Of a stretch of DNA of 55,250 nt, positions 7,112-32,434 are shown one piece after another (position 1 is the first letter of the stretch; every line of letters starts with the position of its first letter). A model generated the notes under the pieces. The model saw nothing but the letters and a program-made list of their open reading frames with translations. It was not told the DNA's origin and searched no databases. The stretch is taken from positions 1-55,250 of the forward strand of contig CAYUSL010000001.1 in assembly GCA_964447125.1 (NCBI GenBank), given 5' to 3'. This DNA is from an uncultured bacterium. GTDB taxonomy: Bacteria > JADJOY01. The position numbers and the translations under genes are program-made.

Positions 7112-7117
7112 GCGAGC

Positions 7118-7708: not shown

Positions 7709-7724
7709 TCTCAGGGGAGGCGAC

Positions 7725-8105: not shown

Positions 8106-8113
8106 GCGTCGCC

Positions 8114-8592: not shown

Positions 8593-8609
8593 ATCGCGCG
8601 GAGGATCGG

Positions 8610-9458: not shown

Positions 9459-10832
9459 TCACGAGCGCTCGGAGCGTCCGAACACCCGGCTCGCCGGCAT
9501 GCGTGAGCGGATGTCGGCGAGGGTGCGCTCGTCGATCACGGTGATGCCCCGCTCGCGACAGTGCGTCTCGACGTTGCGCATCACCATCCCGCGCACGAAC
9601 GCCGGTATCTGTTTCATGCGCTCGAGCGCGGCCGGCTCCCAGCGCAACGCCGGGGCGGGAAGCTCTCCGTAGCCTTCGTCCCGGCGTGCGAGCGCGGCGA
9701 CGTGACGGAAGCGTCCCACCTCGTGATCGCAGAGTGGATCTGCCGCGCGGTAGTCGCCGGTCACCCCGTACGCGCGCGCCCGGCAACCGCCACAGGCCGC
9801 AGCCAGCTCACAGTCCCCGCACCGACCTCCGAGCGCGGTCCGGACTCGAATTCCCTTGAACAGCTCGGAGCTGCGCCAGACGTCCACCAGCGCGTCGTGA
9901 CGCAGGTTTCCGGCGAACACGGGCAAGTACGGGCATGGAGTGACGTCGCCGTTGGGACGGATTCCGAGATAGTGCGTTCCGGCCGGGCAGCCGCCGGCTC
10001 CGCCGGTATAGGTGCGTGGCAAGGCTGCGTCGGGATCGTGGGCGAGGGCGGTGCGCACGTGATGAGGTGCGCATTTCGCGTTGACCAGCATCTTCCCTTC
10101 GAATCGACGCTGTAGCTGGTGGAGACGCTCGAGCACGGTGTCGTACGTCGCGGGGTCGAGATCGGACACGTATTCGCCGCGGCCCGTGGGCACGAGGAAG
10201 TAGAGGTTCCAGACCTTGGCGCCGAGTCCATCGTGAGCCAACGCCGCGATCGCTTCGAGTGAGTCGACGTTGTGGCGCGCGACGGTGGTCTGCACCAGGA
10301 ACGGCAGACCCACGGAAGCCAGGATTCGCGCTCCCTCGACGGTGTTGGCGAAAGCGCCGCGCACGTTGCGAAACGCGTCGTGGCTGGTTGCGTCGGTGGC
10401 GTCGAGTGACAGGGCGAGACCGCGCGCGCCGCTCGCGGCGAGACGTGTGGCCACGTTCTCGGTGATCCGCACGCCGTTCGTTCCGACCACGACCCAGAGC
10501 CCGCGACTTGCGGCGTGCGCCACGATCTCCAGGATGTCGCGACGCAAGAGCGGCTCGCCGCCGGTCAAGATCGTCACGCACTCGGGCGCGAGCTGGGCGA
10601 TCTGGTCGGCGACCGCGAAGCATTCCGCCGTGGTGAGCTCGCTGCGGTCCGCGAACGCTTCGCTGGCGACGAGCGGGTTCGGTCCCGCATCGAGATAGCA
10701 GTGCTCGCAGGCCAGATTGCAGCGGTACGTGAGATTCCAGGACACCACGTACGGCCGCTCGAAGGCCGCCCCCGGCTCCATGGGGAGCGCGAGCGCCATG
10801 CCGGCTTCGAGCGTGCGGTTGGACGGCATCAT
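9459..10832 (-). CDS. Radical SAM/SPASM enzyme, AhbD/NirJ-like, with a C-terminal PCP_red (BchB C-terminal-like) domain
   Basis: 457 aa. Motifs: CNLACEHC (CxxxCxxC) within SWNLTYRCNLACEHCYLD; a SPASM-like Cys cluster GCPAG..PNGDVTPCPYL...CGDCELAAACGGCRARAY; and the C-terminal LRWEPAALERMKQIPAFVRGMVMRNVETHCRERGITVIDERTL, which matches the W..EA...L..IP.FVRG..R...E..A...G pattern of PCP_red. Confidence 0.85.
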   Translation of the reverse strand: MMPSNRTLEAGMALALPMEPGAAFERPYVVSWNLTYRCNLACEHCYLDAGPNPLVASEAFADRSELTTAECFAVADQIAQLAPECVTILTGGEPLLRRDILEIVAHAASRGLWVVVGTNGVRITENVATRLAASGARGLALSLDATDATSHDAFRNVRGAFANTVEGARILASVGLPFLVQTTVARHNVDSLEAIAALAHDGLGAKVWNLYFLVPTGRGEYVSDLDPATYDTVLERLHQLQRRFEGKMLVNAKCAPHHVRTALAHDPDAALPRTYTGGAGGCPAGTHYLGIRPNGDVTPCPYLPVFAGNLRHDALVDVWRSSELFKGIRVRTALGGRCGDCELAAACGGCRARAYGVTGDYRAADPLCDHEVGRFRHVAALARRDEGYGELPAPALRWEPAALERMKQIPAFVRGMVMRNVETHCRERGITVIDERTLADIRSRMPASRVFGRSERS

Positions 10833-10839
10833 GCAGCTC

Positions 10840-11283
10840 TCACATGCCGAAGAAATCCTTGGCCTCGTCCATCACGCGCTCGTCGATGCTGGCGTAGCCG
10901 CGTTCGCGGGCGAAGCGCTCGACGCCGGTGCGCGCCATCGGTCGCGCGAACGACGGCACGTTCTCGAGCCGGCGCTCGGCCTCCGAGGTCCACGTGAGCG
11001 CACCCGATGCTTCCGCGCTCGGTGAGCGTGGTTCGCCCTCGCCGCGCGCCAGGCCTGCGATGGGACATTTCGACGCCGCCGACTGGGCCGGTGGCGCATC
11101 ACCCGCGGGAGCGACGTTCACGCCCAGCGAGCCCACGACTTGGGTTTCGAACGGGTTCGTGAGCATCGCCATCTCGTAGCCGCACGTGGGACACGCGTAG
11201 ACGAGCGTGAGCGAGCCGCGGTCGGGGGGCTTGGTCTCGATCAGCCGCATCGGCGAGTCGCAAGGAACGCACAGGAACTTCAT
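10840..11283 (-). CDS. Zinc-ribbon protein with a C-terminal PCP_red domain
   Basis: 147 aa. N-terminal CVPC...CPTC (a four-Cys ribbon). C-terminal LTWTSEAERRLENVPSFARPMARTGVERFARERGYASIDERVMDEAKDFF. ATGA overlap with the upstream Mrp gene. Confidence 0.7.
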   Translation of the reverse strand: MKFLCVPCDSPMRLIETKPPDRGSLTLVYACPTCGYEMAMLTNPFETQVVGSLGVNVAPAGDAPPAQSAASKCPIAGLARGEGEPRSPSAEASGALTWTSEAERRLENVPSFARPMARTGVERFARERGYASIDERVMDEAKDFFGM

Positions 11284-12155
11284 GGGGCCTCCTCGAGTGC
11301 AGCGACGACACGATCGACGATGGCCGTCGTGGCGACGGCGGAAGGTAGTGCCGGCGGCGCGAACACCGACTCGCCGCGATCGCAGCGCGCAGCCAGCGCG
11401 GGATCGAACGGAATGCGGCCCAGCAAGGGCGTGCCGAGCATGCCGGCATCGTCACTGGGAAAGAGCGGCTGCACCTTGTCGCACTCGCTGCAGTGGTAGC
11501 CGCTCATGTTTTCGACGTAGCCGAGGATGCGATTGGGGGTCTTCGCGAGCGCCGCCAACGATCGCGCAACCACGCCACGCGCCAACGCGCTGGGAACGGT
11601 GACCAGCACGAACTGTACGGCTGGGCCGAGAAAATCTGCGTACTGCACGGCGCGCTCCGCGCCTGGCGGGAGGTCCACCACGAGCTCGTCCAGCTCCCCC
11701 CACGCGACCGTGCCCAGCAGCTCCTCGAGCAGCGTGAACTCGCGCGTGGCGCGCCACGTGTGCATCTCGCCCCGAGCCACGGAGTCGAACTGCAGCTCTT
11801 CGCCCTCGGGCACCAGCGCCCCGATGGACACCACGCCGATCCCGCTCGCGGTCCTGGGCAACGCGACGCGACCCTCGTCGGTGGGGATGAGCGGCCGCAA
11901 GCCGAGCCCCGTGAGGCGCGCTTGGCTGGGGCCGTTGAGGTCGGCATCGAGGATGGCGACGCGACGTCCCGTGTTGCTCAGGCCCGCCGCGAGCTGGGTC
12001 GCGACGGTGCTCTTTCCCACGCCGCCCTTTCCGGATGCGATGGCGAGCACGTGCCGGACGCTGCCGAGATTGCGGGCGCGCCGCTCGCGAATCGCGCGGA
12101 CCTGTCCGAGGACGTCCGAGCCGCCGTCGCCGACGATGTCGTGATAGCTCTTCAT
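11280..12155 (-). CDS. apbC: Mrp/NBP35 (ApbC) family Fe-S cluster carrier ATPase
   Basis: 291 aa. It has the deviant Walker A IASGKGGVGKST, ILDADLNGPS, and a CxxC in ENMSGYHCSECDK, typical of Mrp/NBP35 proteins. Confidence 0.85.
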   Translation of the reverse strand: MKSYHDIVGDGGSDVLGQVRAIRERRARNLGSVRHVLAIASGKGGVGKSTVATQLAAGLSNTGRRVAILDADLNGPSQARLTGLGLRPLIPTDEGRVALPRTASGIGVVSIGALVPEGEELQFDSVARGEMHTWRATREFTLLEELLGTVAWGELDELVVDLPPGAERAVQYADFLGPAVQFVLVTVPSALARGVVARSLAALAKTPNRILGYVENMSGYHCSECDKVQPLFPSDDAGMLGTPLLGRIPFDPALAARCDRGESVFAPPALPSAVATTAIVDRVVAALEEAP

Positions 12156-12170
12156 GCGTGTGCCGCGAGG

Positions 12171-13016
12171 CTACCCGGCGCTCACGTCGAGCGAGAACCG
12201 CGTCCATTCGCGCGTCACCCGAAAACCGATTCCGGTGAGGGTTTCGATGGGGAGCTCGTCGCGTCCGAGCCGCGGAATCCGGAGCCAGCGTGCACCGAGG
12301 CTCGCGAGCGTCGCCAGCAGCGGTGTCACGGCGGCCGAATCTCCGGGTGCGCCGAGGGCCGCGATGGAGATCTCCTCGCCCGACACGCTCGTCTCGTACA
12401 GGCAGAAGGCCTCGACGCGATCGGAGTGGATCGCCAAGGCCTGAAGTTGCGGCGCGCGGCGGGCCAGTGCTTCGGGTGCTCGCATCCACGACTCCCGGGA
12501 TCCCATGCTGCACGTCCTCGAAAGCTCGTCGAAGCCGACGGGAGCGGCGAGCTCGGGGAGGTGTCCCTCTTCTGCGCGCATGGCGTCGCCATCGAGGACG
12601 AGGTCCACGAGCGTCCCAGTCGCGCCGAATCCGCAGGCGGTGAGCAGCGCCCGGGTGGCCTGGTCGCGGGAGTCGATCTCCATCGTCAGGCGCGGCGGCC
12701 CCAAAATCGCGAGCTTTCGCGCGAGCGATTCGAGAAGGTGGCGCGCGTGTCCGCGGCGTCGCTGCGCGGGGTGCACGCCCAGGGCGAGGATGCAGGTTTC
12801 CGCCGCTCGCTTGGCTGCGAGCAAGACGCCGATGGGGCCGCGCTCGTCGAAGGCCAGCATCGAGCTCGACGTCCAGAAATCGACGAGACGGCCGCGCCGC
12901 TTCAGCACTTCGGGCTCGAGGGGGGGCAGGCCTGGGATCTGCGATGCCAGGCAGTCGTTGTACGCGTGCGCGAGCGCGCCGACGTCGTCGGTCCGGCAGA
13001 ACCGGTAGCCGGGCAT
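12171..13016 (-). CDS. GNAT-family N-acetyltransferase (possibly a tandem GNAT fold)
   Basis: 281 aa. It shows the acetyl-CoA motif A-like LALGVHPAQRRRGHARHLLESL. Its size is compatible with two GNAT lobes. Confidence 0.65.
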   Translation of the reverse strand: MPGYRFCRTDDVGALAHAYNDCLASQIPGLPPLEPEVLKRRGRLVDFWTSSSMLAFDERGPIGVLLAAKRAAETCILALGVHPAQRRRGHARHLLESLARKLAILGPPRLTMEIDSRDQATRALLTACGFGATGTLVDLVLDGDAMRAEEGHLPELAAPVGFDELSRTCSMGSRESWMRAPEALARRAPQLQALAIHSDRVEAFCLYETSVSGEEISIAALGAPGDSAAVTPLLATLASLGARWLRIPRLGRDELPIETLTGIGFRVTREWTRFSLDVSAG

Positions 13017-13062
13017 CGTGGCGTGGGCTAGAGCGGGCGGCGCGCTGCGATGGCGATGCGGG

Positions 13063-15117
13063 TCAGTCGCTGGCGCCAGGGCTGCCCTGTCGCATCGCGT
13101 GCAGCGCGCCCATGATGCCCACCTCGTTGAGGGGCGCGGCTGCAGCGCCCGACAGGCCGGCTGCGGTCGACGGCGCCACCGTGGCGGCGCGACGGGCGGC
13201 CTCGGGATTCGCGGCGTAGCCCTGGATCATCTCCGCCATCGCCTGGCGGCTCGCGGCGATCGCTTCCTCGGTCAGCACCAGGTCGATCACCACGCTGTTC
13301 CGCTCTTCCGCGAGCGCCTCGATCCGTTCCTGCGTCTTGCTTCGCATGAAACCCGCAGGGACGCGGAACAGGCGCTGCACCGCGTCCTCCGTCCATTTTC
13401 GCGTCGAGAAGAGCGGGTTCTTCTTGTCGTCGCGCGCCACGAGCTTCTTGCCGTCATCGAGCGTCAGCGCCTCGTCTCGGCTCGAAGATCCGTTCGGCTC
13501 GCGATCGCCGAGCTCGATCGGCGTTCCCAGCTCGTCCTCGATGATGCTGCGCGCGAGCTCCAGCGTCACGGTATTGAGCCGCTTGAGCCGCACCGACTTC
13601 TCGATTCGGGCTTTGGTGCGGCGGCGTTGGTACGGCTCCTTGAGCGTCCACAGCGCACGTTTGGCATCCTGAGTCCAGGTGAGCGAGCGTCCGTCGTAGG
13701 TGGTCTCGCTCTCCGCACCGCCTTCCATGCGGATGATCTCGGCCACCTGTGCTGCGCTGATCCGATCGAACACGCTGGAGCCGCACACGGCACACTTCGC
13801 TGGCTCCTCTTCGGTCGCGGTCACGCCGCAGCTCCGGCAGATCGCCACCGCGTGATCCTTGGCGCGCTCGAGGACCAACGCCTCCGCGAACTTGGTGGTC
13901 GCCTCGGCGGTGGCCTTGGGCATGTACCGATCCATGGCCTCGTCGAGAAGCGAGCTGGTGATGACGCTGTGGCCCTGCTCGACGGCGAGGCGGTAGATCG
14001 CGGTGCGCGCGATGCCCTGCACGAGTGGCGGGACGTTCTTCATGCGCCCTTCCGCTTCCGGCGTCCAGCGGATGGTCTCCTCGGCCTTCACGTCGAGCTC
14101 GGGATGCTCGAGGCGCGTGGTGAGCAGCACGTTGCAAGGCGCCTGGCGCAGCATGTTTTCCGTGTTGCTGCCGAGCGCACGCTCGTCGGCGCCGCTGTGC
14201 ACGCCGATGCGGCCGAGCACCAGGAGCCACGGACGAGTCTTGCGCACGTGATCCAGCAGTTTCTGGAATGCCTTGCCGTCGAGCAGGGTGCGGGTGATCT
14301 CGAAACCCGCGGCGTGGGCCATGTGCTCGGCGACCTTGAGGTGCGACTCGTAGATCTGCGCCAGGCCGGTGTCGATGATCTCTTCGTGGAGCTGGTTCTG
14401 CTCCTCGAAACGAAACACCTTCGCCGCCTTCTCGGTGAGAACGTCGACCACGCTGGCGAAGACCGAGTAGTGCAGGTAGGGATCGTAGACGGCCACGGCT
14501 TCGACCTGCTTGCCGAGCTGCTTCGCCAGGTCGATGGCCGTCATCAGCGCCCCGAAGGATTGGGGGCTGCCGTCGATCCCCACCAGGATCGTGTCGCTCG
14601 TCTGCGCGCGGGTTCCGTCTTTCTCCGGCACGTCCTTGATGACGAGCACGTCGCGCGCCGTGCCACGCACCACGCGCTCGCACACCGACCCGATCTGGCT
14701 GTCGCGCACGCGTCCCAGGCCCAGCGCGCCGAGGACGATCAGGCCGTAGTCGTGCGCTTCGATGTCGCGCAGCAGCTCGACCGAGTGCTTGCCGTCCATC
14801 ATGCGCGGCTCGAACGGAAGCCCGGCCTCGGCGCAGACCTCGGCCATCGGAGCGAGGTAGCTGTCGGAGATGAGCTTGAGGCCCATCGTGATCAAGCTGT
14901 CGTGAATCTTGCGTTGGCGATCGAGCTCGTTCTCCTCGAGGTACTCCTCGGGAAGCGTGAACTCCATCTGTTTGAAGCGATAGTCGTGCATGCGCGCGGC
15001 ATAGACGTGGCAGCCCACCATCCTGCTCGTGAATGCCTTGCCGAGCGCGACACCGAGTGCAATCGCCTCGTTCGAGTGGGGCGAGTTGTCCACCGGTACG
15101 TAGATCGTGTCGTACAT
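13063..15117 (-). CDS. Tandem universal-stress-protein (USP) domains fused to three PCP_red domains and a zinc ribbon
   Basis: The start is trimmed from the 824-aa ORF to the ATG at 15117 (MYDTIYVPVDNSPHS), which has GGAGGG 5 nt upstream and lies downstream of the 15153 stop of the upstream gene. USP signatures appear twice (IYVPVDNS...GLIVLGALG...VLVIK and ILVGIDGS...LLVLGRIG...NVLL). PCP_red-like repeats are IRWTPEAEGRMKNVPPLVQGIARTAIYRLAVEQGHSVI, LTWTQDAKRALWTLKEPYQRRRTKARIEKSVRLKRLNTV and RKWTEDAVQRLFRVPAGFMRSKTQERIEALAEERNSVVI. The zinc ribbon is CRSCG-x12-CAVCG. Confidence 0.8.
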   Translation of the reverse strand: MYDTIYVPVDNSPHSNEAIALGVALGKAFTSRMVGCHVYAARMHDYRFKQMEFTLPEEYLEENELDRQRKIHDSLITMGLKLISDSYLAPMAEVCAEAGLPFEPRMMDGKHSVELLRDIEAHDYGLIVLGALGLGRVRDSQIGSVCERVVRGTARDVLVIKDVPEKDGTRAQTSDTILVGIDGSPQSFGALMTAIDLAKQLGKQVEAVAVYDPYLHYSVFASVVDVLTEKAAKVFRFEEQNQLHEEIIDTGLAQIYESHLKVAEHMAHAAGFEITRTLLDGKAFQKLLDHVRKTRPWLLVLGRIGVHSGADERALGSNTENMLRQAPCNVLLTTRLEHPELDVKAEETIRWTPEAEGRMKNVPPLVQGIARTAIYRLAVEQGHSVITSSLLDEAMDRYMPKATAEATTKFAEALVLERAKDHAVAICRSCGVTATEEEPAKCAVCGSSVFDRISAAQVAEIIRMEGGAESETTYDGRSLTWTQDAKRALWTLKEPYQRRRTKARIEKSVRLKRLNTVTLELARSIIEDELGTPIELGDREPNGSSSRDEALTLDDGKKLVARDDKKNPLFSTRKWTEDAVQRLFRVPAGFMRSKTQERIEALAEERNSVVIDLVLTEEAIAASRQAMAEMIQGYAANPEAARRAATVAPSTAAGLSGAAAAPLNEVGIMGALHAMRQGSPGASD

Positions 15118-15152
15118 GAACCCTCCGAACCCTTGCGCACGCACGCGCCGGT

Positions 15153-17647: not shown

Positions 17648-17689
17648 GGGGCGTGCTCTCGGTCCTTCGTCGTTGCGACTCGCAGCTGG

Positions 17690-18181: not shown

Positions 18182-20037
18182 GCGGCACCTCCGTGGGGGC
18201 CGTGCCCGGTGCCGCCCTCACGGTTTCCCCAATCGGGGGCGTGCGAGAGGCTCGCGAGCCAGAACACCATGCCGATCAGCGCAAAGAAGATCAGCACGGT
18301 GACCGATACGACCTTGGTCGCGAAACCGAGTGTCGGGGTGAAGGCGTCGACCGAGGTGTCGCGGATGACACCATAGACGTGCCAGTGCTGGCGCAGACCG
18401 GAGCGCACGTAGCCCATGAGCCCCATGAGCCACGTGAACGTGACCGCGATGAAGATCAGGATGTATTGAGAGAGCGGGGGCATGCGCCCCCAGCGCGTCT
18501 CACCCGTCGACTGCGCACCGCGATAGAGCGGCACGTCGATGACGGTGATGCTCACCATTGCCGCCAACACCGCGAGCACCTGGTACGCCGAGTAGCCGAT
18601 TCGCACCTTCGCTTCGACGAAATAGCCGTGAATGCCGAAGAAGATCACCCACGCGGCAGCGGCGAAGAAGAGCGCGAATTGGATGAGGTTTGCCGTGGTC
18701 GCCCACGGTTGCACCGAGCGCTTTCCGCTGCGCCTGTAGAGCAGGAAGCTCATGAACGTCGTCAGGATGAGGATGTTCACCGCAGTGTTCTTCGCCGACA
18801 TCACGCCGAGGAAGCCGAGCATCGGATGCGTCGATCCGCGCATCGCCTTCACTTCCGACGCCGTGGAGATGATCGAGCGGGGCGTGGCCCACACCGCGAA
18901 GCACAGCGCGATCGTGATGAGCAGGTACTTGATGAATTTCTGGAACGGCTGCGCGCCCTCGATTCGTCCCATGCCCAGCCACAGATAGGCGTTGGCTGCG
19001 AGGAACAAGTTGCCGATGAGCACCGCCTGGATGATGAAGAGCCATGAGAACGCTCCGCCCATCATCATGATGCCGAGTGCCTGGTTGAAGCCGTAGATCT
19101 CGCGCGCCAGGTAGTAACCGGCGAAGGGCAGAGGCAGGAACGCCAGGATGGCCACGAAGTTGCCGATGTAGCCCATCCAGTCGTAATGGGCGCGCTCTTC
19201 GTCGGTCTTGGCTCCCAGGTATTGGAACGCCGCATACGCCGCCGCGACCGAACCGCCGAACGCGACGTTGGCGATGAGGCGGTGAACGTTGATGGGCATC
19301 CAGGTGAAGTTCATCGCGGCTTCCATCACGTTCAACACCGCGCCGGAGTCGGAAACGCCGGCGGGCGACATCATGAACGAGACCCACGAGTTCGCGATGA
19401 ACATGATCGCGGTGCCCACCAGGTTGAGGCCCACGCCGAGGCCGATGTGCACCAGCGGATGAAACTTTCCCCAGCCGTAGTAGTAGCTGTAGAGGAAGAA
19501 CGCTTCCGCGAAGAAGAGCCCGACGTAAGGCGCGAAGGTCGGGCTGAAGACGCTCATCAAGTAAGTCGTGAACTTCGGATAGAGCGCGATCAGCAGGAAC
19601 GTCAGCATCGCGCCGAAGGTGGCGGTGATCGAGAACGACACCGACAAGAGCTTCGTGAACTCGTACGCGAGCCGGTCGTAACGTGTGTCCTTGGTGGCGT
19701 AGCCGATGATCTCGATGATGATCGCGAACATCGGCACCGCGAGCACGAACGCGGCGAAGAGCAGGTGAAGCTGCGCTGCCACCCACACGGCGACTCGGCT
19801 GCCGACCACCGGGAACTTGCGGTACTCGACTTCCTTGTAAGGCGTGGCCTTGGCGTCGGCCGCTTGCTTCTGGGCGAGGTCGTGCTCGGCTTGCTGGCGC
19901 GGCGTCGTCGCCTCGCTGAGGCCGCGCGTCGGTGGGTGGTAGGCGCGGTGCTCGAGCTGCATCCAGACGCCCACGAGCGAGCCGAGCCCGAGCACCACGG
20001 CGATCACCGCCATCGGCACGAGCACGCGAGGCTTCAC
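18178..20037 (-). CDS. Cytochrome bd superfamily subunit-I-like (CydA-like) protein, about 14 helices, no Q-loop-sized insert
   Basis: The start is trimmed to the GTG at 20037, which has GGAGAG 3 nt upstream and overlaps the actE1 stop as GTGA; the ATG at 20013 is an alternative. The segment VWVAAQLHLLFAAFVLAVPMFAIIIEIIGY...LLSVSFSITATFGAMLTF...YVGLFFAEAFFLYSYYYGWGKF...NVHRLIANVAFGGSVAAAYAAFQYL is colinear with CydA helices 1-5. It includes the helix-1 His and helix-5 His positions and a Glu aligned with E. coli E107. No hydrophilic stretch longer than about 30 aa occurs after helix 1. Confidence 0.75.
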   Translation of the reverse strand: MKPRVLVPMAVIAVVLGLGSLVGVWMQLEHRAYHPPTRGLSEATTPRQQAEHDLAQKQAADAKATPYKEVEYRKFPVVGSRVAVWVAAQLHLLFAAFVLAVPMFAIIIEIIGYATKDTRYDRLAYEFTKLLSVSFSITATFGAMLTFLLIALYPKFTTYLMSVFSPTFAPYVGLFFAEAFFLYSYYYGWGKFHPLVHIGLGVGLNLVGTAIMFIANSWVSFMMSPAGVSDSGAVLNVMEAAMNFTWMPINVHRLIANVAFGGSVAAAYAAFQYLGAKTDEERAHYDWMGYIGNFVAILAFLPLPFAGYYLAREIYGFNQALGIMMMGGAFSWLFIIQAVLIGNLFLAANAYLWLGMGRIEGAQPFQKFIKYLLITIALCFAVWATPRSIISTASEVKAMRGSTHPMLGFLGVMSAKNTAVNILILTTFMSFLLYRRSGKRSVQPWATTANLIQFALFFAAAAWVIFFGIHGYFVEAKVRIGYSAYQVLAVLAAMVSITVIDVPLYRGAQSTGETRWGRMPPLSQYILIFIAVTFTWLMGLMGYVRSGLRQHWHVYGVIRDTSVDAFTPTLGFATKVVSVTVLIFFALIGMVFWLASLSHAPDWGNREGGTGHGPHGGAA

Positions 20038-20633
20038 GGGCTCTCCTGGCGCTCGAGCTCGCGCACGAAGGCAACGATCGCCCAGCGGTCTTGGGTCGGC
20101 ACGGGCCAGCGGTAGGACGGCATCAGCCCCGAACCGTTCGTGATCACGTCGAAGAGCTGACCGTCCGGCATGTTCACGATCTTGTCGGAGTGCATGCTGG
20201 GCGTCGGCACGTTTCCGCGCTCGTAGAGAATGCCTTTGCCCGTGCCGCGGCTGTCGTGGCACGGCGCGCAGTAGATCGCGAAGCGATCGCGCCCGCGTGC
20301 AACGACCGTGGCGTCGTTGCCGATCGGGTTGGTCGCGACGAAGGCACCGCCGACGTCCTTACCCGTGTGGATCGTGGGATTCACGTGCAGCTCGCCACGG
20401 GCGATTGTCCCAGGCACGGGTGGGCGCATCGTTCCGCCGTCGTAAAAGAAGGCACTCTCGGACTGGGGGTCGTAGCGCGGCTGATAATCCATGCTGGGAT
20501 TCAGGTGGATCGGCTCCCGGCTCGAGGTGCAGCCGCGCGCGCAGCCGCTCGAGGCCAGCGCCAGCGACGCGACGCCGAGGCAGGTGGCGATCCACGCGCA
20601 CCGGCGTCGCAAGGTGAGTTGCTCTCGGCGCAT
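20034..20633 (-). CDS. actE: ACIII subunit ActE (lipoprotein monoheme cytochrome c), copy 1
   Basis: The start is trimmed to the ATG at 20633, 4 nt after the actB1 stop. It has the lipobox LASSGC and CAPCH. It aligns with the actE at 32961 (RF.IYC.PCHD..G.GKG... FDVI..G.G.MP.Y...P..DRWAI.A). Confidence 0.8.
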   Translation of the reverse strand: MRREQLTLRRRCAWIATCLGVASLALASSGCARGCTSSREPIHLNPSMDYQPRYDPQSESAFFYDGGTMRPPVPGTIARGELHVNPTIHTGKDVGGAFVATNPIGNDATVVARGRDRFAIYCAPCHDSRGTGKGILYERGNVPTPSMHSDKIVNMPDGQLFDVITNGSGLMPSYRWPVPTQDRWAIVAFVRELERQESP

Positions 20634-20637
20634 GCGC

Positions 20638-23600
20638 TCAGGCCTTGTCGAGATCCGGATTGGGATTCCGGATGCGCGCGAGGTACGAGGTGCGCGGCTT
20701 GGTGTTGAGCTCGGCGAGCAGGTCGTAGTTGCGCGGGCTGGTCTTCGCGACGGCGACGCGGCTCTTCGGGTCGCGGATGTCGCCGAACTCGATCGCGCGC
20801 GCAGGGCAAGCCTGCTGGCAGGCCGTGCGGACGTCACCGTCGGCGAGCGCCCGGTTCTCGAGCTTCGCCTGTTGCCGGCCGGCGCTGATTCGCTGCAGAC
20901 AGTACGTGCATTTTTCCATCACGCCGCGTGCCCGAACCGTGACGTTCGGATTCATCGCCATCTTCAGCGTTTCGGGCGTGTCTTTGGTGAAGTTGTAATA
21001 GTTGAAGCGCCGCACCTTGTACGGACAGTTGTTCGAGCAATAACGCGTACCGATGCAGCGGTTGTAGACCATGGCGTTGAGGCCGTGATCGTCGTGCACG
21101 GTCGCAGCCACCGGACACACCTGCTCGCAAGGCGCGTTCTCGCATTGCATGCAGGGAATGGGCTGGACGACCATCGCTTCCGGGTCGTCGGGATCGCCGC
21201 GGAAGTAGCGGTCGACGCGGATCCAATGCAGCTCGCGACCTCGGCGCACTTGGTCGCGGCCGACTGCAGGGATGTTGTTCTCCGCCTGGCACGCCGTGAC
21301 GCAGGCGTTGCAGCCGGTACAGACGTTCAAGTCGATGGTCATGCCCCATTGGGGGCCGTCCGCGTACGCGCGCTCCTGCCACAACGATTCCAGCGGCGGG
21401 TGCTCGACCATCTCCTTGGCGAACTCGGGCTCGTGCTGGAACTCCGCGAGGGTCGCCTCGCGAATCAACGTGGGGACACGTCGATCGCGTTCCTTCGCAC
21501 CGAGCTCGTCGATGATCCAATGATCCTGGGTGATGGCCAGCTCTGCGGTGCGGCTCAGTCGCTCGATTCGCGCTGAAGCCGCTCCCGCCAGGGTCTTCGT
21601 GGTTCGCAGGCGATACGCATCGGCCCCGACCATCGATCCGACCCGCCCGGCGGCCTCGCGGCCGTAACCGAGCGCGATCGTGACGGTGTGCTCGGCCTGA
21701 CCCGGGCTGATCACCACGGGGATCTCGATCTTCGCGTCGCCGACGGCGATGACCACCAGGTCTTCGTCGGTCACGCCCAATGCGCGTGCCGTTGCATAGC
21801 TCAGGAGTGCGGCGTTGCCCCAAGTGAGCTTGGTGGTCAGGTCGGGTAGCTCTTGCAGCCAAGAGATGTTGGCGAATCGGCCGTCGTAGACGGTGAACGA
21901 CGGCACGAACGTCAGCTCGATCGCTTCTGCCGTGGGCGGAGGAAGCGAGTCCGTGAGCGTTGCCGGCGCGGCGGCTCCTGCAGGAAGCGACTCGAGCTCG
22001 TTGGCAGTCGCGCTCGCTTCGAGCAGGCCGTCGTGCAGCACCCGTTCCCAGCGCGAATCGAGCTCGGAGTCGCCGAGGATGCCGCGCCAGGTTTCGCGCA
22101 CGAGGTCGTAGCCACTCGTGAGCTCCGCCTTTGCTGGGTCGGCGGCGAACGCGCCGAGCAGCTCGGCGACGGAACGGGCGCCGTGCAGCGGCAGCACGAG
22201 CGGCTGCACCACGCTGAGCGTGCCGTCGGCTGCGGCCGCGTCACCCCAGCTCTCCAGGAAATGAGCGAGCGGCAGGTGCCAGTGGGCGAGGGCTGACGTC
22301 TCGTCGACTTTCGCGCCAGCACGAATACACGTGGTCACTTTGGCGACGGCCTTCGTGAAGTCGAGGTCGCTCGGGGCGTCGTACGCGGGATTCCCGCCGA
22401 GGATCACGAGCGTGGAGACCTCACCCGACTGGATCGCCGAGACCAGCGCCGTCAGCTCGCCGAGCACCGAACGCGCGGCATGCCGGGGTGCCCTGTGGGT
22501 GAGCGTGGTTCCGAGATTGCCGAGGGCGGCGTTGATCGCGAGCACCCACGCATGGACGGCCGGTGGTAGATGGGCGCCAGCCACGACCACGCTGCGTCCG
22601 CGATTCGCCAGCAGATCTTTCGCCGCAGCAGCGATCCAACGTGCATCGACGTCTTCGCCTGAAACAGCCGGTGCCCCGAGACCAAGCTCGCGCGCCAGCA
22701 GTGCGACGACCGCAGGCATGCGACCGCGGCGCAATCGCAAGCGATGATCGGCGAGGCCGCCGGTGGCTGTGAAAGAGCTTTCGACGACGTAGAGCCGGTT
22801 GAGGTCCGGGGCGCTCGAGGTCTCGTGGTCCGTGGCGGGCAACACAGCGCGCCGGGCCGCGAAACCACCGGTGTTGCGCACCGTTTCGAGATCGGTGCCG
22901 AACGGATCGGCGTCGATGGCCACCACCACTCGGGCGCGTTGGTAATCGACGAGCGCTTCGAGCGCGCGCCCCGTGACGGCGGCGACTGCGCTCCGCTGGT
23001 GCTCGTCGCTGAGCGGCTCGTAGGTCGCCCAGCGCGCTCGCGGATAGACCTCGAGGAAGCGCGTCCGCAGGCGCGCGAGCGTCGGCGACGTGAATGGCTC
23101 GCCCAGCACTGCGAGGCCCGCGCCCTCGCTGGCACGCAGCGATGCCGCTTGGCTGCGCCAGAACCCGTCGAAATCCGTCCAGCTCGAGGGCGCACCGCTC
23201 TTGCGCACCGGACCGGCGCGATCGGGATCGTAGAGATCGTAGATTGCGGCCTGCATCCACGCGCTCGAAGCGCCGCGGGTCGCTGGATGCAGCTCGTTCC
23301 CTTCGATCTTGGTGGGCCGCCCCTCGTGGCTCTCGACGACCAGCCCGTAGGCACTCCTGCCGAACGGCATGGTGGTGGCGTAGCGGCGTGGCACGCCGGG
23401 CAGGATCTCTTCCGGCGGCTTGACGTACGGAACGATCTTTTCGAGTGGGCGGCGACACGCGGTCAGCCCCGCGATCGAGAGCGTCGCTCCCGTGAGCCCG
23501 AGCATGTGCCGTCGCGAGACGACGTCGGGCGGTGAATCAGCTCCCGCTGGAAACTCGGGCGAAGCCGCGCTCTCTGCGCCGCGTGAGGATTCGAGTGCCG

Positions 23601-23652
23601 CGACGCTGCGCCAGTAGGCGGCGCTTCGCGCGGGGCCTGGTGAGCTCGTCAT
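20638..23652 (-). CDS. actB: ACIII subunit ActB (molybdopterin-oxidoreductase-like domain plus Fe-S ferredoxin domain), copy 1
   Basis: About 1004 aa. The ATG at 23652 overlaps the actA1 stop as ATGA, the same arrangement as in copy 2. It has the Tat-like SRRHMLGLTGATLSIAGLTAC. Fe-S motifs are CTGCNACVTACQAEN, CMQCENAPCEQVCP, CIGTRYCSNNCPYKVRRFN, CTYCLQRI and ACQQACP. It is colinear with the ActB at 27970. Confidence 0.9.
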   Translation of the reverse strand: MTSSPGPARSAAYWRSVAALESSRGAESAASPEFPAGADSPPDVVSRRHMLGLTGATLSIAGLTACRRPLEKIVPYVKPPEEILPGVPRRYATTMPFGRSAYGLVVESHEGRPTKIEGNELHPATRGASSAWMQAAIYDLYDPDRAGPVRKSGAPSSWTDFDGFWRSQAASLRASEGAGLAVLGEPFTSPTLARLRTRFLEVYPRARWATYEPLSDEHQRSAVAAVTGRALEALVDYQRARVVVAIDADPFGTDLETVRNTGGFAARRAVLPATDHETSSAPDLNRLYVVESSFTATGGLADHRLRLRRGRMPAVVALLARELGLGAPAVSGEDVDARWIAAAAKDLLANRGRSVVVAGAHLPPAVHAWVLAINAALGNLGTTLTHRAPRHAARSVLGELTALVSAIQSGEVSTLVILGGNPAYDAPSDLDFTKAVAKVTTCIRAGAKVDETSALAHWHLPLAHFLESWGDAAAADGTLSVVQPLVLPLHGARSVAELLGAFAADPAKAELTSGYDLVRETWRGILGDSELDSRWERVLHDGLLEASATANELESLPAGAAAPATLTDSLPPPTAEAIELTFVPSFTVYDGRFANISWLQELPDLTTKLTWGNAALLSYATARALGVTDEDLVVIAVGDAKIEIPVVISPGQAEHTVTIALGYGREAAGRVGSMVGADAYRLRTTKTLAGAASARIERLSRTAELAITQDHWIIDELGAKERDRRVPTLIREATLAEFQHEPEFAKEMVEHPPLESLWQERAYADGPQWGMTIDLNVCTGCNACVTACQAENNIPAVGRDQVRRGRELHWIRVDRYFRGDPDDPEAMVVQPIPCMQCENAPCEQVCPVAATVHDDHGLNAMVYNRCIGTRYCSNNCPYKVRRFNYYNFTKDTPETLKMAMNPNVTVRARGVMEKCTYCLQRISAGRQQAKLENRALADGDVRTACQQACPARAIEFGDIRDPKSRVAVAKTSPRNYDLLAELNTKPRTSYLARIRNPNPDLDKA

Positions 23653-24311
23653 CGATGGCACCCCGAGCAGTCGACGGGAGGCTCTAGGTGCTTCTCGGCG
23701 ATGATCCGTTCGCCGGCGCTGCGCTGATCAGGCGGCGCCTGCCAGCGCATGTTCGTCACCTGCTCGGTAGGACGCAGGTGTGGCGCTGGATCGCGATGGC
23801 AGTCGAGGCACCAACTCATGCTGAGAGGCTCGGCTTGCGTGACGACCTCCATCTGATCGACGCGACCGTGGCATTCGACGCAGCCGACACCTGCGCGCAC
23901 GTGCATTGCGTGATGGAAGAACGCGAAGTCCGGCAGGTTGTGCACGCGCACCCACTGCATGGGCTGGCCGGATGCGTAGCTGGCACGGATGGGCGCCAGA
24001 AGCGCGCTATCGCGTTTCACCACCGCGTGGCAGTTCATGCAGACCTGCGTGGGTGGAACGTTCGCAACCGCCGATCGCTCGACCGACGCGTGACAGTACT
24101 TGCAGTCGATGCCGAGATCGCCGGCGTGCAAGCGATGACTGTACGGGACCGGCTGTCGGGGGGCGAAGCCGACGTCCGTGTAACGCGGCGAGAAGTAGTA
24201 CCAGACGACGCCGATGATCAGGGTCGTGGCGACGAGACCACCGGCCGCCAATGCCAGCGCGGCTCGATTGCTCGATTCCGGAAACACCTGCGCCAAGCGC
24301 TCGACCCCCAA
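23649..24311 (-). CDS. actA: ACIII subunit ActA (membrane-anchored pentaheme cytochrome c), copy 1
   Basis: Five CxxCH motifs (CKYCH, CMNCH, CVECH, CLDCH, CSGCH) and one N-terminal helix. The ORF-track start at 24311 is TTG. A TTG at 24296 would give MAQVF..., parallel to the MAQIF... of copy 2, so the start is uncertain. Confidence 0.85.
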   Translation of the reverse strand: MGVERLAQVFPESSNRAALALAAGGLVATTLIIGVVWYYFSPRYTDVGFAPRQPVPYSHRLHAGDLGIDCKYCHASVERSAVANVPPTQVCMNCHAVVKRDSALLAPIRASYASGQPMQWVRVHNLPDFAFFHHAMHVRAGVGCVECHGRVDQMEVVTQAEPLSMSWCLDCHRDPAPHLRPTEQVTNMRWQAPPDQRSAGERIIAEKHLEPPVDCSGCHR

Positions 24312-25532: not shown

Positions 25533-25556
25533 CTCGAGGGCCGGATCCAAGCCGAG

Positions 25557-31023: not shown

Positions 31024-32434
<1,411 letters not shown>

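What the first reader, a model, noticed from the sequence alone, without database searches (positions are those of the whole stretch)
9459..24311. A 15-kb, 12-gene co-directional operon joins ActA-ActB-ActE to a CydB-less cytochrome bd-like subunit, three c-type cytochromes and a cofactor-maturation cassette
**Observed.**
- All twelve minus-strand genes from actA1 (24311) to the radical SAM gene (9459) are packed tightly.
- Five junctions are 4-nt start/stop overlaps: actA1/actB1, actE1/cydA-like, cydA-like/cyt c, membrane cyt c/diheme cyt c, and mrp/Zn-ribbon.
- All other gaps are at most 46 nt.
- The order is pentaheme ActA, Fe-S ActB, monoheme ActE, CydA-like, monoheme cyt c, membrane-domain cyt c, diheme cyt c-EB_dh, USP-PCP_red, GNAT, Mrp/NBP35, Zn-ribbon-PCP_red, radical SAM-PCP_red.
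- The operon contains no NrfD-like ActC or ActF and no CydB.

**Established.**
- In characterised ACIII, the ActAB(E) electron-transfer module sits on the ActC/ActF membrane subunits.
- Canonical bd oxidases are CydAB quinol oxidases.

**Inferred.**
- This locus may encode a respiratory complex in which the ACIII peripheral wire and extra c-type hemes feed, or are fed by, a bd-like membrane subunit.
- The complex would have its own dedicated maturation genes.
- I know of no described complex with this composition, but I could not search databases.
Basis: partly seen in the sequence, partly recalled or inferred. Interest (0 to 1): 0.9.

Follow-up and report, generated by a model that had tools for sequence, protein, structure and literature searches.

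The report
Split ACIII joined to bd-like oxidase
The 12-gene operon is real and conserved in many uncultured soil and sediment bacteria, but its "missing" membrane partners are encoded in the neighbouring convergent operon, so it is best read as half of a split alternative complex III co-transcribed with an uncharacterised bd-like (OR-N2) oxidase module and a haem-synthesis cassette.

Summary

- **CydA-like core.** The CydA-like protein and its three c-type cytochromes match the predicted but uncharacterised OR-N2 bd-like family (Murali et al. 2021).
- **Conservation.** The order ActA-ActB-ActE-CydA-like recurs in about 45 species-level genomes, by record title mostly Acidobacteriota.
- **Correction.** The operon is not ActC/ActF-less in practice. 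The convergent operon (1247-9413), starting 46 nt past the radical-SAM stop, opens with ActC-ActD-ActF and carries no ActA/B/E. It continues with a cupredoxin and an aa3-type haem-copper oxidase.
- **Co-variation.** ActABE and ActCDF are both present in 4 lineages and both absent in 5, with one discordant locus. One ACIII is therefore split over two operons.
- **Link to the oxidase.** In Bacteroidota the same oxidase genes and the CydA-like genes form a single operon.
- **Cassette.** It is conserved across phyla. Its radical-SAM enzyme is AhbD-like (haem b synthase motifs), and HemY or ferrochelatase genes lie nearby.

This is a new variant of known kinds. Function is untested.

The parts
23649..24311 (-). 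ActA1, pentahaem cytochrome c with one N-terminal membrane helix
   Evidence: Five CxxCH motifs and a helix at 18-36. Cytochrome_C7 and c3 Pfam hits. 46% identical to ActA2.
20638..23652 (-). ActB1, Fe-S / molybdopterin-like subunit with a twin-arginine signal (SRRHML)
   Evidence: E = 7.4e-271 to Rhodothermus marinus ACIII ActB, 6f0k_B. Fer4 domains. Signal sequence read. 48% identical to ActB2.
20034..20633 (-). ActE1, monohaem cytochrome c lipoprotein (LASSGC lipobox)
   Evidence: One CAPCH motif. Cytochrome_CBB3 2.2e-11. Lipobox read.
18178..20037 (-). CydA-like OR-N2-type membrane protein, 619 aa, about 13-14 helices, no Q-loop
   Evidence: Pfam Cyt_bd_oxida_I covers only profile 2-237 of 418. 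H91, Y171, E178, Y185, Y187, H197 and H252 fit the OR-N2 signature. Foldseek finds only CydA, then CydB weakly, and nothing NrfD-like.
17690..18181 (-). Membrane-anchored monohaem cytochrome c
   Evidence: CLTCH motif and an N-terminal helix. Cytochrom_C 1.3e-06. Present in all loci.
16826..17647 (-). Four-helix membrane domain fused to a monohaem cytochrome c
   Evidence: Four predicted helices and a CFYCH motif. Cytochrome_CBB3 4.5e-09. Present in all loci.
15153..16829 (-). Dihaem cytochrome c fused to an EB_dh (EbdC/NxrC-like) domain, with a C-terminal membrane helix
   Evidence: Two CxxCH motifs. EB_dh 2e-18. Dihaem part matches 6h5l_B at 4.8e-53. The EbdC haem-b ligands Met108/Lys201 align to F422 and K/R510 and are not conserved.
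13063..15117 (-). Tandem USP protein with two PCP_red domains and a Zn ribbon
   Evidence: Usp 3.9e-35, PCP_red 1.7e-22. Conserved in Acidobacteriota and Rhodothermales loci.
12171..13016 (-). GNAT-family acetyltransferase-like protein; the least conserved member
   Evidence: Acetyltransf_1 1e-06. Only 33-44% identity in most orthologues, and no tblastn hit in the Rhodothermales-type loci.
11280..12155 (-). Mrp/NBP35-type P-loop Fe-S cluster carrier
   Evidence: ParA/NUBPL 1.2e-53. Hits MrpORP and ApbC models below their cut-offs.
10840..11283 (-). Zn-ribbon protein with a C-terminal PCP_red domain
   Evidence: PCP_red 4.8e-17. CxxC...CxxC read from the sequence.
9459..10832 (-). AhbD-like radical SAM/SPASM enzyme with a C-terminal PCP_red domain
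   Evidence: Best NCBIfam hit is AhbD haem b synthase, 293.6 bits against a cut-off of 500; NirJ2 275 bits. Motifs CX3CX2C and CX2CX5CX2CX17C are present, in 25 of 26 sequences including the window's own (motif from PMC10114771).
24438..24467 (-). Promoter-like site upstream of actA1
   Evidence: Consensus match, 9 of 12. Weak evidence only.
1247..2668 (+). ActC1, NrfD-like membrane subunit; first gene of the convergent operon
   Evidence: NrfD 2.9e-22. 56% identical to ActC2. No ActA/ActB upstream: 2-844 is a minus-strand MlaE gene.
2670..3233 (+). ActD1
   Evidence: Pfam ActD 6.7e-68.
3277..4485 (+). ActF1, second NrfD-like membrane subunit
   Evidence: E = 5.9e-95 to 6f0k_F, ActF.
4478..5233 (+). 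Periplasmic cupredoxin-like protein with a CarboxypepD_reg domain ('p251')
   Evidence: CDVHPWM type-1 copper-like motif. Copper-bind 0.002, CarboxypepD_reg 7.5e-10. Travels with COX1b in other phyla.
5339..9413 (+). aa3-type haem-copper oxidase: COX1b 5339-7111, COX3b 7118-7708, COX4b 7725-8105, small membrane ORF 8314-8592, COX2b 8610-9413 (CuA site, no cytochrome c domain)
   Evidence: Pfam COX1 3e-133, COX3, COX4_pro, COX2. HPEVY and CAQLCGLGHYRM motifs. Convergent with the rSAM gene, 46 nt apart.
24577..26990 (+). Divergent unit: conserved 103-aa membrane ORF (24577-24888), SCO1/SenC copper chaperone (24876-25532), HemY-type (copro/proto)porphyrinogen oxidase (25557-26990)
   Evidence: SCO1-SenC 6.2e-29 and Amino_oxidase 1.5e-54. 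TIGR00562 at 228.6 bits, above its cut-off. Homologues lie next to the cluster in many loci.
27308..39755 (+). Context: complete canonical ACIII (ActA2-B2-C2-D2-E2-F2) followed by SCO1 and a caa3-type oxidase
   Evidence: Translations. NrfD, ActD and cytochrome c hits. YSHPAVY motif in CoxI.

Best explanation
The 12-gene operon is one half of a two-operon respiratory module.

**(1) A split ACIII.** ActA1-ActB1-ActE1 are the periplasmic electron wire of a second alternative complex III. Its membrane subunits ActC1-ActD1-ActF1 head the convergent operon at 1247-9413. Quinol would be oxidised at ActC1. Electrons would pass through the ActB1 Fe-S clusters and the ActA1 haems to ActE1. This step is inferred from solved ACIII structures.

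**(2) Two acceptors, one per half.**
- ActCDF is co-transcribed with a cupredoxin and an aa3-type haem-copper oxidase.
- ActABE is co-transcribed with an OR-N2-type bd-like module: a CydA-like protein with b-type haem sites, plus three membrane-anchored c-type cytochromes.

I infer that the bd-like module takes electrons from ActE1/ActA1 through its four c haems and most likely reduces O2. This follows what has been proposed for the Nitrospira homologue Nide0901.

**(3) A haem-supply cassette.** The last five genes probably supply or insert haem rather than build a new cofactor. They comprise an AhbD-like, oxygen-independent coprohaem decarboxylase fused to a PCP_red domain, two further PCP_red proteins, an Mrp/NBP35 Fe-S carrier and a GNAT.

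**Shown:** gene content, conservation, co-variation and motifs.
**Inferred:** assembly, direction of electron flow, O2 reduction and the cassette's substrate.
For: **Split ACIII**
- ActC1 hits NrfD, ActD1 hits ActD at 6.7e-68, and ActF1 matches 6f0k_F at 5.9e-95. No ActA/B/E lies in that operon.
- ActB1 matches 6f0k_B at 7.4e-271.
- The window holds exactly two copies of each of ActA to ActF. Set 2 is complete within one operon.

**Co-variation**
- Both halves present: window, L051/L083, L068/L088, L163.
- Both halves absent: L019/L086, L058, L066, L067, L077.
- The operon ActC-ActD-ActF-cupredoxin-COX1-3-4-2, lacking ActABE, recurs convergent to the cassette in L083-L085, L087 and L088.

**OR-N2 identity**
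- Signature residues and the truncated Pfam match fit OR-N2.
- The operon content, several cytochromes c plus an EbdC homologue, matches the published description.

**Coupling of ActABE to OR-N2**
- actE1 and the cydA-like gene overlap by 4 nt.
- The adjacency is kept at 48-55% ActB identity across Vicinamibacterales, Thermoanaerobaculia and Polarisedimenticolia.

**Oxidase reading**
- The literature treats Nide0901-type proteins as the cytochrome c-oxidising terminal oxidase of Nitrospirales (PMC10579370).

**Cassette**
- AhbD is the top NCBIfam hit, and both AhbD cluster motifs are present.
- HemY and ferrochelatase genes lie in the island.
- The cassette is conserved with the CydA-like genes in Acidobacteriota and Rhodothermales.
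Against: - There are no expression, protein or activity data for any member of this family.
- L014 has ActABE but shows no ActCDF next to its cupredoxin-oxidase operon. Only four lineages show both halves directly.
- ActABE status could not be read in L084, L085, L087, L114 or L164.
- In Bacteroidota the aa3-type oxidase and the CydA-like genes share one operon with a 3-nt gap. That is unusual for two independent terminal oxidases and fits an accessory or electron-entry role for the bd-like module just as well.
- E99 is Tyr, and the canonical EbdC haem-b ligands are not conserved.
- In L085 the Mrp/PCP_red/rSAM trio sits beside the haem-copper oxidase with no CydA-like gene within 10 kb. The cassette may therefore serve the oxidase island as a whole.
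- The rSAM scores below the AhbD equivalog cut-off.
Confidence: 0.55

Rival explanations
1. ActA1-ActB1-ActE1 dock directly on the CydA-like protein (and the 4-helix cytochrome c) in place of NrfD-like subunits. This would give a new complex in which the ACIII wire feeds, or is fed by, the bd-like subunit without ActC/ActF.
For: - ActABE and the CydA-like gene are always contiguous, and actE1/cydA overlap by 4 nt.
- L014 has ActABE with no ActCDF visible next to the oxidase operon.
- ActB is homologous to the alpha/beta subunits of type II DMSO-reductase enzymes, and the operon encodes an EbdC-like (gamma-like) domain.
Against: - A matching ActC-ActD-ActF set without ActABE lies 5 kb beyond the operon's end and co-varies with ActABE in other genomes.
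- Foldseek of the CydA-like model finds only CydA/CydB and nothing NrfD-like, although the model is of low confidence at pLDDT 61.7.
- The OR-N2 core exists without ActABE in Rhodothermales, Bacteroidota, Calditrichia and some Acidobacteriota. It therefore does not need ActABE.
Confidence: 0.12
2. The bd-like module is not an oxygen reductase. It is a haem b/c electron-entry or distribution module that serves the neighbouring aa3-type oxidase. It would act either as a complex III-like quinol:cytochrome c/cupredoxin oxidoreductase or as a membrane anchor for the c-type cytochromes.
For: - In Bacteroidota, cupredoxin-COX1-COX3-COX4-COX2 and CydA-like-cyt c-cyt c-dihaem c form one operon with a 3-nt gap.
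- The same oxidase lies convergent to or divergent from the cluster in at least 20 Acidobacteriota-type loci.
- COX2b has CuA but no cytochrome c domain, so it needs external donors.
- A complex III-like role for 14-helix bd-like proteins was proposed for Nitrospina, and a homologue sits in the NXR cluster of the anaerobe Kuenenia (PMC3578206).
- E99 is replaced by Tyr.
Against: - All residues for quinol binding are missing and no alternative site is known (PMC3578206).
- H19, E107, H126 and H186 equivalents of the O2-reducing four-helix core are invariant in 74 sequences.
- Nitrospirales that lack haem-copper oxidases are thought to respire O2 with this family (PMC10579370).
- In Acidobacteriota an ACIII is added to the same island, which would make a second complex III analogue redundant.
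Confidence: 0.2
3. The genes are a co-located regulon of independent enzymes: an ACIII, a haem-copper oxidase, a bd-like oxidase and haem biosynthesis. They cluster in a respiratory island and are co-regulated, for example by O2, but have no physical or dedicated functional link.
For: - The window is a 38-kb respiratory island with three operons, two ACIII sets and two haem-copper oxidases.
- Members move relative to each other. The cassette is absent within 10 kb in L025/L026, the oxidase is not near the rSAM in L162, and other genes are inserted in L001, L083 and L088.
Against: - Splitting one complex's subunits over two operons forces co-expression of both.
- There are 4-nt overlaps at module boundaries.
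- The order of cassette and core is kept at about 40-65% identity between phyla.
Confidence: 0.1

Closest known systems
OR-N2 subfamily of cytochrome bd-like proteins (Nide0901-type; Murali, Gennis & Hemp 2021, bioRxiv 10.1101/2021.01.16.426971)
   Same: - About 14 helices, no quinol-binding Q-loop and no second CydA/CydB.
- Signature pattern H19 / E99->Y / E107 / Y,Y / H126 / H186.
- An operon with several cytochromes c and an EbdC homologue.
   Different: - Here it is preceded by ActA-ActB-ActE.
- It is followed by an AhbD-like/PCP_red/Mrp cassette.
- It is linked to a specific aa3-type oxidase with a cupredoxin.

None of these is mentioned in the description I could read. The canonical EbdC Met/Lys haem ligands are not conserved. 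No member of the subfamily has been purified.
Alternative complex III (ActABCDEF; structures 6f0k, 6btm, 6lod)
   Same: All six subunit types are present, with strong matches to the solved subunits: ActB 7.4e-271, ActF 5.9e-95, ActD 6.7e-68. ActA is pentahaem and ActE is a monohaem lipoprotein.
   Different: - The genes are split into ActABE and ActCDF on convergent operons, each fused to a different oxidase-type module.
- A second, unsplit ACIII-caa3 operon lies 3 kb away in the same window.
ACIII-like genes followed by bd-like oxidases in Nitrospirales (actABCDE + OR-N5) and the Manganitrophus terminal-oxidase clusters TO_3/TO_4
   Same: Genomic coupling of ACIII-type subunits to a Q-loop-less bd-like protein (PMC12342949, PMC9040806).
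   Different: - Those clusters keep the NrfD-like ActC in the same cluster.
- In Nitrospirales the partner is OR-N5 (two 10-helix CydA-like proteins), not a single OR-N2.
- No split, no haem-copper oxidase partner and no AhbD-like cassette were reported.
NXR gene clusters of Nitrospina, Nitrospira and Kuenenia with a 14-helix bd-like protein
   Same: A 14-helix bd-like protein next to mono- and dihaem cytochromes c, an NxrC/EbdC-type domain, a zinc-finger protein and cupredoxin-like proteins (PMC3578206).
   Different: The partner there is a catalytic molybdoenzyme (NxrAB). Here it is cofactor-less ActB, together with an aa3-type oxidase.
AhbD (radical SAM haem b synthase) and NirJ2
   Same: It is the top NCBIfam hit, and both Fe-S cluster motifs are present, including CX2CX5CX2CX17C (PMC10114771).
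   Different: - It scores below the equivalog cut-off (293.6 against 500 bits).
- It carries an extra C-terminal PCP_red domain.
- It sits in a respiratory operon alongside two other PCP_red proteins, not in an ahb operon.

Membership tests
Alternative complex III | ActA: pentahaem cytochrome c with an N-terminal membrane helix | tested here: met
   Five CxxCH motifs and a helix at 18-36.
Alternative complex III | ActB: Tat-exported Fe-S / molybdopterin-like subunit | tested here: met
   7.4e-271 to 6f0k_B. SRRHML signal.
Alternative complex III | Two NrfD-like membrane subunits (ActC, ActF) plus ActD | tested here: met
   They are not in the 12-gene operon. They are present at 1247-4485 on the convergent strand: NrfD 2.9e-22, ActD 6.7e-68, ActF 5.9e-95.
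Alternative complex III | All subunits encoded in one act gene cluster | tested here: not met
   ActABE and ActCDF lie in two convergent operons about 15 kb apart at their starts. The same split occurs in L083/L051, L088/L068 and L163.
Alternative complex III | Quinol:cytochrome c (or HiPIP) oxidoreductase activity; the subunits assemble into one complex | not testable with these tools
   Needs biochemistry or complexome profiling.
Canonical cytochrome bd quinol oxidase (CydAB) | CydA N-terminal four-helix core with H19, E107, H126 and the haem b558 ligand H186 | tested here: met
   H91, E178, H197 and H252 align to these residues and are conserved in at least 95% of 74 sequences.
Canonical cytochrome bd quinol oxidase (CydAB) | Proton-channel E99 | tested here: not met
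   The position is Y171, conserved in at least 95% of 74 sequences.
Canonical cytochrome bd quinol oxidase (CydAB) | Q-loop / quinol-binding region | tested here: not met
   The Pfam match stops at profile position 237 of 418. PDB sequence alignments end near residue 316.
Canonical cytochrome bd quinol oxidase (CydAB) | CydB partner subunit | tested here: not met
   Every multi-helix ORF in the window is otherwise assigned. No CydB appears in the related loci that carry Pfam annotation.
OR-N2 bd-like subfamily | About 14 transmembrane helices | tested here: met
   Hydropathy gives 12-13 segments, and the AF2 model gives about 14 long helices, at low confidence.
OR-N2 bd-like subfamily | Residue signature H19 / E99->Y / E107 kept / F114,F116->Y,Y / H126 / H186 (Supplementary Table 6) | tested here: met
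   H91 / Y171 / E178 / Y185, Y187 / H197 / H252. OR-N1 has Gly at the E107 position, so OR-N1 is excluded.
OR-N2 bd-like subfamily | Operon with several cytochromes c and an EbdC homologue, and no second cydA-like gene | tested here: met
OR-N2 bd-like subfamily | Clusters with reference OR-N2 sequences in a phylogeny | not tested
   The reference sequences (e.g. TKS59798.1) could not be fetched.
OR-N2 bd-like subfamily | Oxygen reductase activity and haem content | not testable with these tools
   No member has been characterised.
Type II DMSO-reductase gamma subunit (EbdC/NxrC, haem b) | EB_dh fold | tested here: met
   PF09459 2e-18. TIGR03477 scores 85 bits, below its cut-off of 170. 2ivf_C 6.2e-13.
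Type II DMSO-reductase gamma subunit (EbdC/NxrC, haem b) | Met and Lys axial ligands of haem b (EbdC Met108, Lys201; ligand identities recalled from memory, not checked here) | tested here: not met
   These align to F422 (F in 53 of 64) and K510 (K 32, R 28) / R511. No Met, Lys or His in the EB_dh domain is conserved at 95% or more. The alignment is short, so confidence is moderate.
AhbD haem b synthase | Radical SAM CX3CX2C plus auxiliary-cluster motif CX2CX5CX2CX17C | tested here: met
   C38-C45 and C338-C368. Both motifs are in 25 of 26 sequences, with the final spacer allowed 15-22 residues in orthologues. Motif from PMC10114771.
AhbD haem b synthase | Scores above the NCBIfam equivalog cut-off | tested here: not met
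   293.6 bits against a cut-off of 500.
AhbD haem b synthase | Decarboxylates coprohaem to haem b | not testable with these tools
   Needs an enzyme assay.

The most novel reading that the evidence does not exclude
The OR-N2 bd-like module, a particular aa3-type haem-copper oxidase with its cupredoxin, and the AhbD-like/PCP_red cassette form one conserved respiratory super-module found across phyla. It is a single operon in Bacteroidota.

Acidobacteriota would then have wired a dedicated ACIII into it by inserting ActCDF ahead of the oxidase genes and ActABE ahead of the bd-like genes. The products would assemble into one ACIII-oxidase-bd-like megacomplex.

Two further features are possible:
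- The bd-like subunit has a role not yet described, such as a second O2 site, a branch point or a copper-dependent site. A SCO1 gene is adjacent, and His284, His404 and His553 are invariant or nearly so.
- The PCP_red proteins act as a new kind of haem-handling system.
Probability: 0.25. Interest if true: 0.8.

Novelty: new variant of a known kind. Interest (0 to 1): 0.6.

Why it matters
- **Reach.** Relatives of the CydA-like protein occur in at least 593 species-level genomes, many from Acidobacteriota. No member of the OR-N2 family has been purified.
- **New leads.** The locus ties OR-N2 genetically to three things not previously linked to it in the literature I could search: a dedicated, split ACIII; a specific aa3-type oxidase with a cupredoxin; and an AhbD-like haem-synthesis cassette with PCP_red proteins.
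- **Testable consequences.** These links give concrete predictions about the electron donor, the partners and the cofactor supply of a putative major terminal oxidase.
- **Annotation.** The split shows that 'incomplete' act clusters should be checked against neighbouring operons before being called new complexes.
- **Haem biosynthesis.** If the AhbD-like enzyme completes a coproporphyrin-dependent pathway (HemY, HemH, AhbD-like), it would be an oxygen-independent last step for that pathway.

Tried and rejected
- **Ordinary CydA with CydB elsewhere in the window.** Rejected. There is no CydB candidate, no Q-loop, and E99 is Tyr.
- **C-terminal half of the CydA-like protein as a hidden NrfD-like or CydB-like domain.** Foldseek of the AF2 model found only CydA chains (E down to 9e-08), CydB weakly, and nothing NrfD-like. 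The model is poor (pLDDT 61.7, TM 0.33-0.39), so this is weak evidence.
- **ActE::CydA fusion (P0109, 824 aa) as Rosetta-stone evidence.** Rejected. It comes from a single contig and has an Arg-rich linker typical of read-through. A periplasmic ActE fused to a probably cytoplasmic N-terminus is also topologically implausible.
- **ActB1 as a catalytic molybdoenzyme.** Not supported. There is no Molybdopterin Pfam hit, and the best matches are the cofactor-less ActB and QrcB.
- **Literature.** Searches for the PCP_red + radical SAM combination and for ActABE + bd-like in Acidobacteria found nothing.
- **Source organism.** It could not be named. The nearest record is 'MAG: bacterium isolate STL-UNK1'.
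- **Extending L002 past its COX2 gene.** A relative, L019/L086, served instead.

Full report
**1. The observation**

ORF listing, translation and start-codon inspection give twelve minus-strand genes between 24311 and 9459, at the coordinates in the parts list. Five junctions are 4-nt ATGA/GTGA overlaps: actA1/actB1, actE1/cydA-like, cydA-like/cyt c, membrane cyt c/dihaem c, and mrp/Zn-ribbon. The remaining gaps are 4, 42, 35, 46, 15 and 7 nt.

- a multihaem ActA with five CxxCH motifs;
- an Fe-S ActB;
- a monohaem ActE;
- Cyt_bd_oxida_I, covering only profile positions 2-237 of 418;
- two monohaem cytochromes c, one of them behind four membrane helices;
- a dihaem cytochrome c fused to EB_dh;
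- Usp plus two PCP_red stretches;
- GNAT;
- ParA/NUBPL (Mrp);
- PCP_red behind a Zn ribbon;
- Radical_SAM + SPASM + PCP_red.

The operon holds ten c-type haem motifs. No product hits NrfD or a CydB family. Terminator-like sites are no more frequent than in shuffled sequence, and one promoter-like site lies upstream of actA1.

**2. What the CydA-like core is**

By sequence the protein resembles solved CydA only over its first five helices. Those alignments place H91, E178, H197 and H252 on the canonical H19, E107, H126 and H186. Y171 falls on E99, and Y185/Y187 fall on F114/F116.

That pattern is the one tabulated for the OR-N2 subfamily by Murali, Gennis and Hemp. They describe OR-N2 as 14-helix proteins without a quinol site. 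Their operons 'typically' contain multiple cytochromes c and an EbdC homologue, often with no second CydA-like gene. In Nitrospirales that family (Nide0901) is thought to be the cytochrome c-oxidising terminal oxidase.

Two details differ from expectation:
- The EbdC haem-b ligands Met108 and Lys201 (ligand identities are from memory, not checked here) align to F422 and K/R510. No Met, Lys or His in the EB_dh domain is conserved at 95% or more.
- The dihaem part is a close relative (4.8e-53) of the dihaem partner chain in the Kuenenia HAO entry 6h5l.

An AlphaFold2 model was of low confidence (pLDDT 61.7). Its Foldseek matches were only CydA, then CydB weakly, with nothing NrfD-like.

**3. Conservation**

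The family is large:
- more than 7,600 90%-identity clusters scored E <= 1e-10;
- at least 593 species-level genomes hold a relative. By record title most of the best 80 are Acidobacteriota (Vicinamibacterales, Thermoanaerobaculia, Polarisedimenticolia). The rest include Rhodothermales/Bacteroidota, Calditrichia, Myxococcota and Fibrobacteria.

A tblastn matrix of the twelve window proteins against 80 loci shows three patterns:
- The four-gene core is present wherever enough sequence is available.
- ActA-ActB-ActE lies directly upstream of the CydA-like gene in about 45 loci, all of Acidobacteriota type.
- ActABE is absent in about 18 loci that have enough upstream DNA. These include five Acidobacteriota and every Rhodothermales, Bacteroidota, Calditrichia and Myxococcota locus.

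USP-PCP_red, Mrp, Zn-ribbon-PCP_red and the rSAM follow the core in most loci, including other phyla. There the rSAM moves to directly after the dihaem gene, and no GNAT hit was found. Metagenome contigs repeat the picture.

**4. The correction: ActC, ActD and ActF are next door**

Reading the other strand shows an operon at 1247-9413 that converges on the rSAM gene, with 46 nt between the two stops. It encodes:
- ActC1 (NrfD 2.9e-22; 56% identical to ActC2);
- ActD1 (Pfam ActD 6.7e-68);
- ActF1 (5.9e-95 to ActF of the Rhodothermus structure);
- a cupredoxin-like protein (CDVHPWM);
- COX1 (HPEVY), COX3, COX4 and a small membrane ORF;
- a COX2 with a CuA site but no cytochrome c domain.

No ActA, ActB or ActE lies in that operon or upstream of it. 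A third operon (24577-39755) encodes a small membrane ORF, SCO1, HemY, a complete ActA2-B2-C2-D2-E2-F2, a second SCO1 and a caa3-type oxidase. The window thus contains exactly two copies of each Act subunit. One set is intact. The other is split into ABE and CDF.

**5. Test of the split-complex reading in other genomes**

| Status | Lineages |
|---|---|
| ActABE next to cydA and ActCDF heading the cupredoxin-oxidase operon | window; L051/L083; L068/L088; L163 |
| Both absent | L019/L086; L058; L066, L067, L077 |
| ABE-less ActCDF-oxidase operon beside the cassette; ActABE status not visible | L084, L085, L087, L114, L164 |
| Discordant: ActABE present, cupredoxin-oxidase operon directly divergent, no ActCDF between | L014 |

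The sample is small but points one way. ActABE and ActCDF are gained and lost together, as expected for subunits of one complex. I put about 0.8 on this sub-claim.

**6.

The aa3-type oxidase of the convergent operon is itself a faithful companion of the bd-like genes. Its COX1 is 71-78% identical across phyla.
- In Bacteroidota locus L066 the order is cupredoxin-COX1-COX3-COX4-COX2-CydA-like-cyt c-cyt c-dihaem c-rSAM-...-USP-Mrp-Zn ribbon, on one strand. Only 3 nt separate COX2 from the CydA-like gene. L067 and L077 show the same oxidase-to-core order within the sequence available.
- In Acidobacteriota-type loci the same oxidase is convergent to or divergent from the cluster in at least 20 cases. 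L162 is an exception.

This keeps open a rival reading in which the bd-like module serves the haem-copper oxidase rather than being an oxidase itself. A complex III-like role was proposed earlier for Nitrospina.

**7. The cassette**

- The rSAM's best NCBIfam matches are AhbD haem b synthase (293.6 bits against a cut-off of 500) and NirJ2.
- It has the radical SAM motif and exactly the auxiliary-cluster motif CX2CX5CX2CX17C reported for AhbD. With a looser final spacer for orthologues, both motifs are found in 25 of 26 sequences.
- PCP_red is the C-terminal domain of the protochlorophyllide reductase subunit BchB. A tetrapyrrole-handling role is my inference from knowledge of that enzyme, not something tested here.
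- A HemY-type oxidase passing its NCBIfam cut-off lies in the island. HemY or ferrochelatase genes lie beside the cluster in at least eight other loci.

The conservative reading is an oxygen-independent last step of coproporphyrin-dependent haem b synthesis, plus haem and Fe-S delivery for this haem-rich island. A dedicated modified haem is possible but not indicated. In L085 the Mrp/PCP_red/rSAM trio sits by the haem-copper oxidase with no bd-like gene within 10 kb. The cassette may therefore serve the island rather than the bd-like protein alone.

**8. Comparison with what is known, and novelty**

Already known:
- the OR-N2 family and its cytochrome c/EbdC operon;
- ACIII and its variable gene clusters;
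- ACIII-like genes next to bd-like proteins in Nitrospirales (OR-N5) and in Manganitrophus TO_3/TO_4;
- bd-like proteins with cupredoxins, cytochromes c and a zinc-finger protein in NXR clusters.

Not found in nine literature searches:
- an ACIII split into ABE and CDF operons;
- OR-N2 coupled to ActABE;
- OR-N2 coupled to this aa3-type oxidase and cupredoxin;
- the AhbD-like/PCP_red cassette.

The library is incomplete, so absence from it is not proof. I rate the finding a new variant of known kinds.

**9. Verdict**

The operon is conserved and probably marks a real functional coupling between ACIII and an OR-N2 module with its own haem-supply genes. However, it is not an ActC/F-less complex, and 'CydB-less bd-like with cytochromes c' is not new.

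Interest is 0.6. It stays substantial because the locus gives testable partners, donors and cofactor genes for a widespread, uncharacterised respiratory enzyme family.

Noticed in passing
window 1247-39755: The first 40 kb form a respiratory island of three operons. Together they hold two complete ACIII gene sets, an aa3-type (HPEVY) and a caa3-type (YSHPAVY) haem-copper oxidase, two SCO1 genes, HemY and the bd-like module.
   Followed up: yes
L066 4743-21644 (also L067, L077): In Bacteroidota-type MAGs the cupredoxin, COX1-3-4-2, the CydA-like core and the cassette lie on one strand as a single operon. Only 3 nt separate COX2 from the CydA-like gene. Three ORFs without Pfam hits (L066 16161-18281) sit between the rSAM and USP genes.
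   Followed up: partly
window 24577-24888 (+): A 103-aa two-helix ORF with no Pfam hit lies between actA1 and SCO1. It is conserved (45-78% identity) beside the cluster in L003, L005, L011, L013, L015, L029 and L047.
   Followed up: partly
window 24876-25532 (+); L035, L047 and many Thermoanaerobaculia loci: A SCO1/SenC copper-chaperone gene sits immediately upstream of actA1. It is divergent in most loci and on the same strand in L035 and L047, although the caa3 operon has its own SCO1. In the CydA-like protein, His404 and His553 are invariant and His284 is nearly so (72 of 74 sequences). A copper requirement of the bd-like module is conceivable but untested.
   Followed up: partly
window 15153-16829 (-), residues 399-520: The EB_dh domain lacks the Met/Lys haem-b ligands of EbdC. 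Its conserved residues include Y419, D424, W432, E506 and R511. Whether it binds haem at all is open.
   Followed up: partly
L087 2665-4704: ActC and ActD are fused into one 679-aa product (NrfD + ActD Pfam hits) in a 4.6-Mb MAG chromosome.
   Followed up: no
P0109 (ENA contig, 12.6 kb): An 824-aa ActE::CydA-like fusion call with an Arg-rich 28-aa linker. It is probably read-through or a sequencing error, not a true fusion.
   Followed up: partly
window 18178-20037 (-), residues 1-76: Before the canonical first helix, the CydA-like protein has an extra N-terminal membrane helix and a loop of about 45 residues with conserved Tyr and Pro.
   Followed up: no
L025, L026, L074, L075: These loci have the CydA-like core (L025 and L026 also ActABE) but essentially no cassette genes within 10 kb downstream. 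L075 has only a weak Zn-ribbon/PCP_red hit. The cassette may be elsewhere or dispensable in those genomes.
   Followed up: no
L001, L030, L041, L064; L111, L115, L124: In some genomes a caa3-type oxidase operon runs directly into ActA-ActB-ActE-CydA-like. In L111, L115 and L124 it runs directly into the CydA-like gene with no ActABE.
   Followed up: no
window 40439-55250: Genes unrelated to the island: alpha-amylase-like, FadB-like and thiolase fatty-acid oxidation genes, a Wzz/GNVR tyrosine-kinase exopolysaccharide gene, and an 11-helix protein fused to a methyltransferase (51961-54180). An MlaE permease lies at 2-844 (-).
   Followed up: partly
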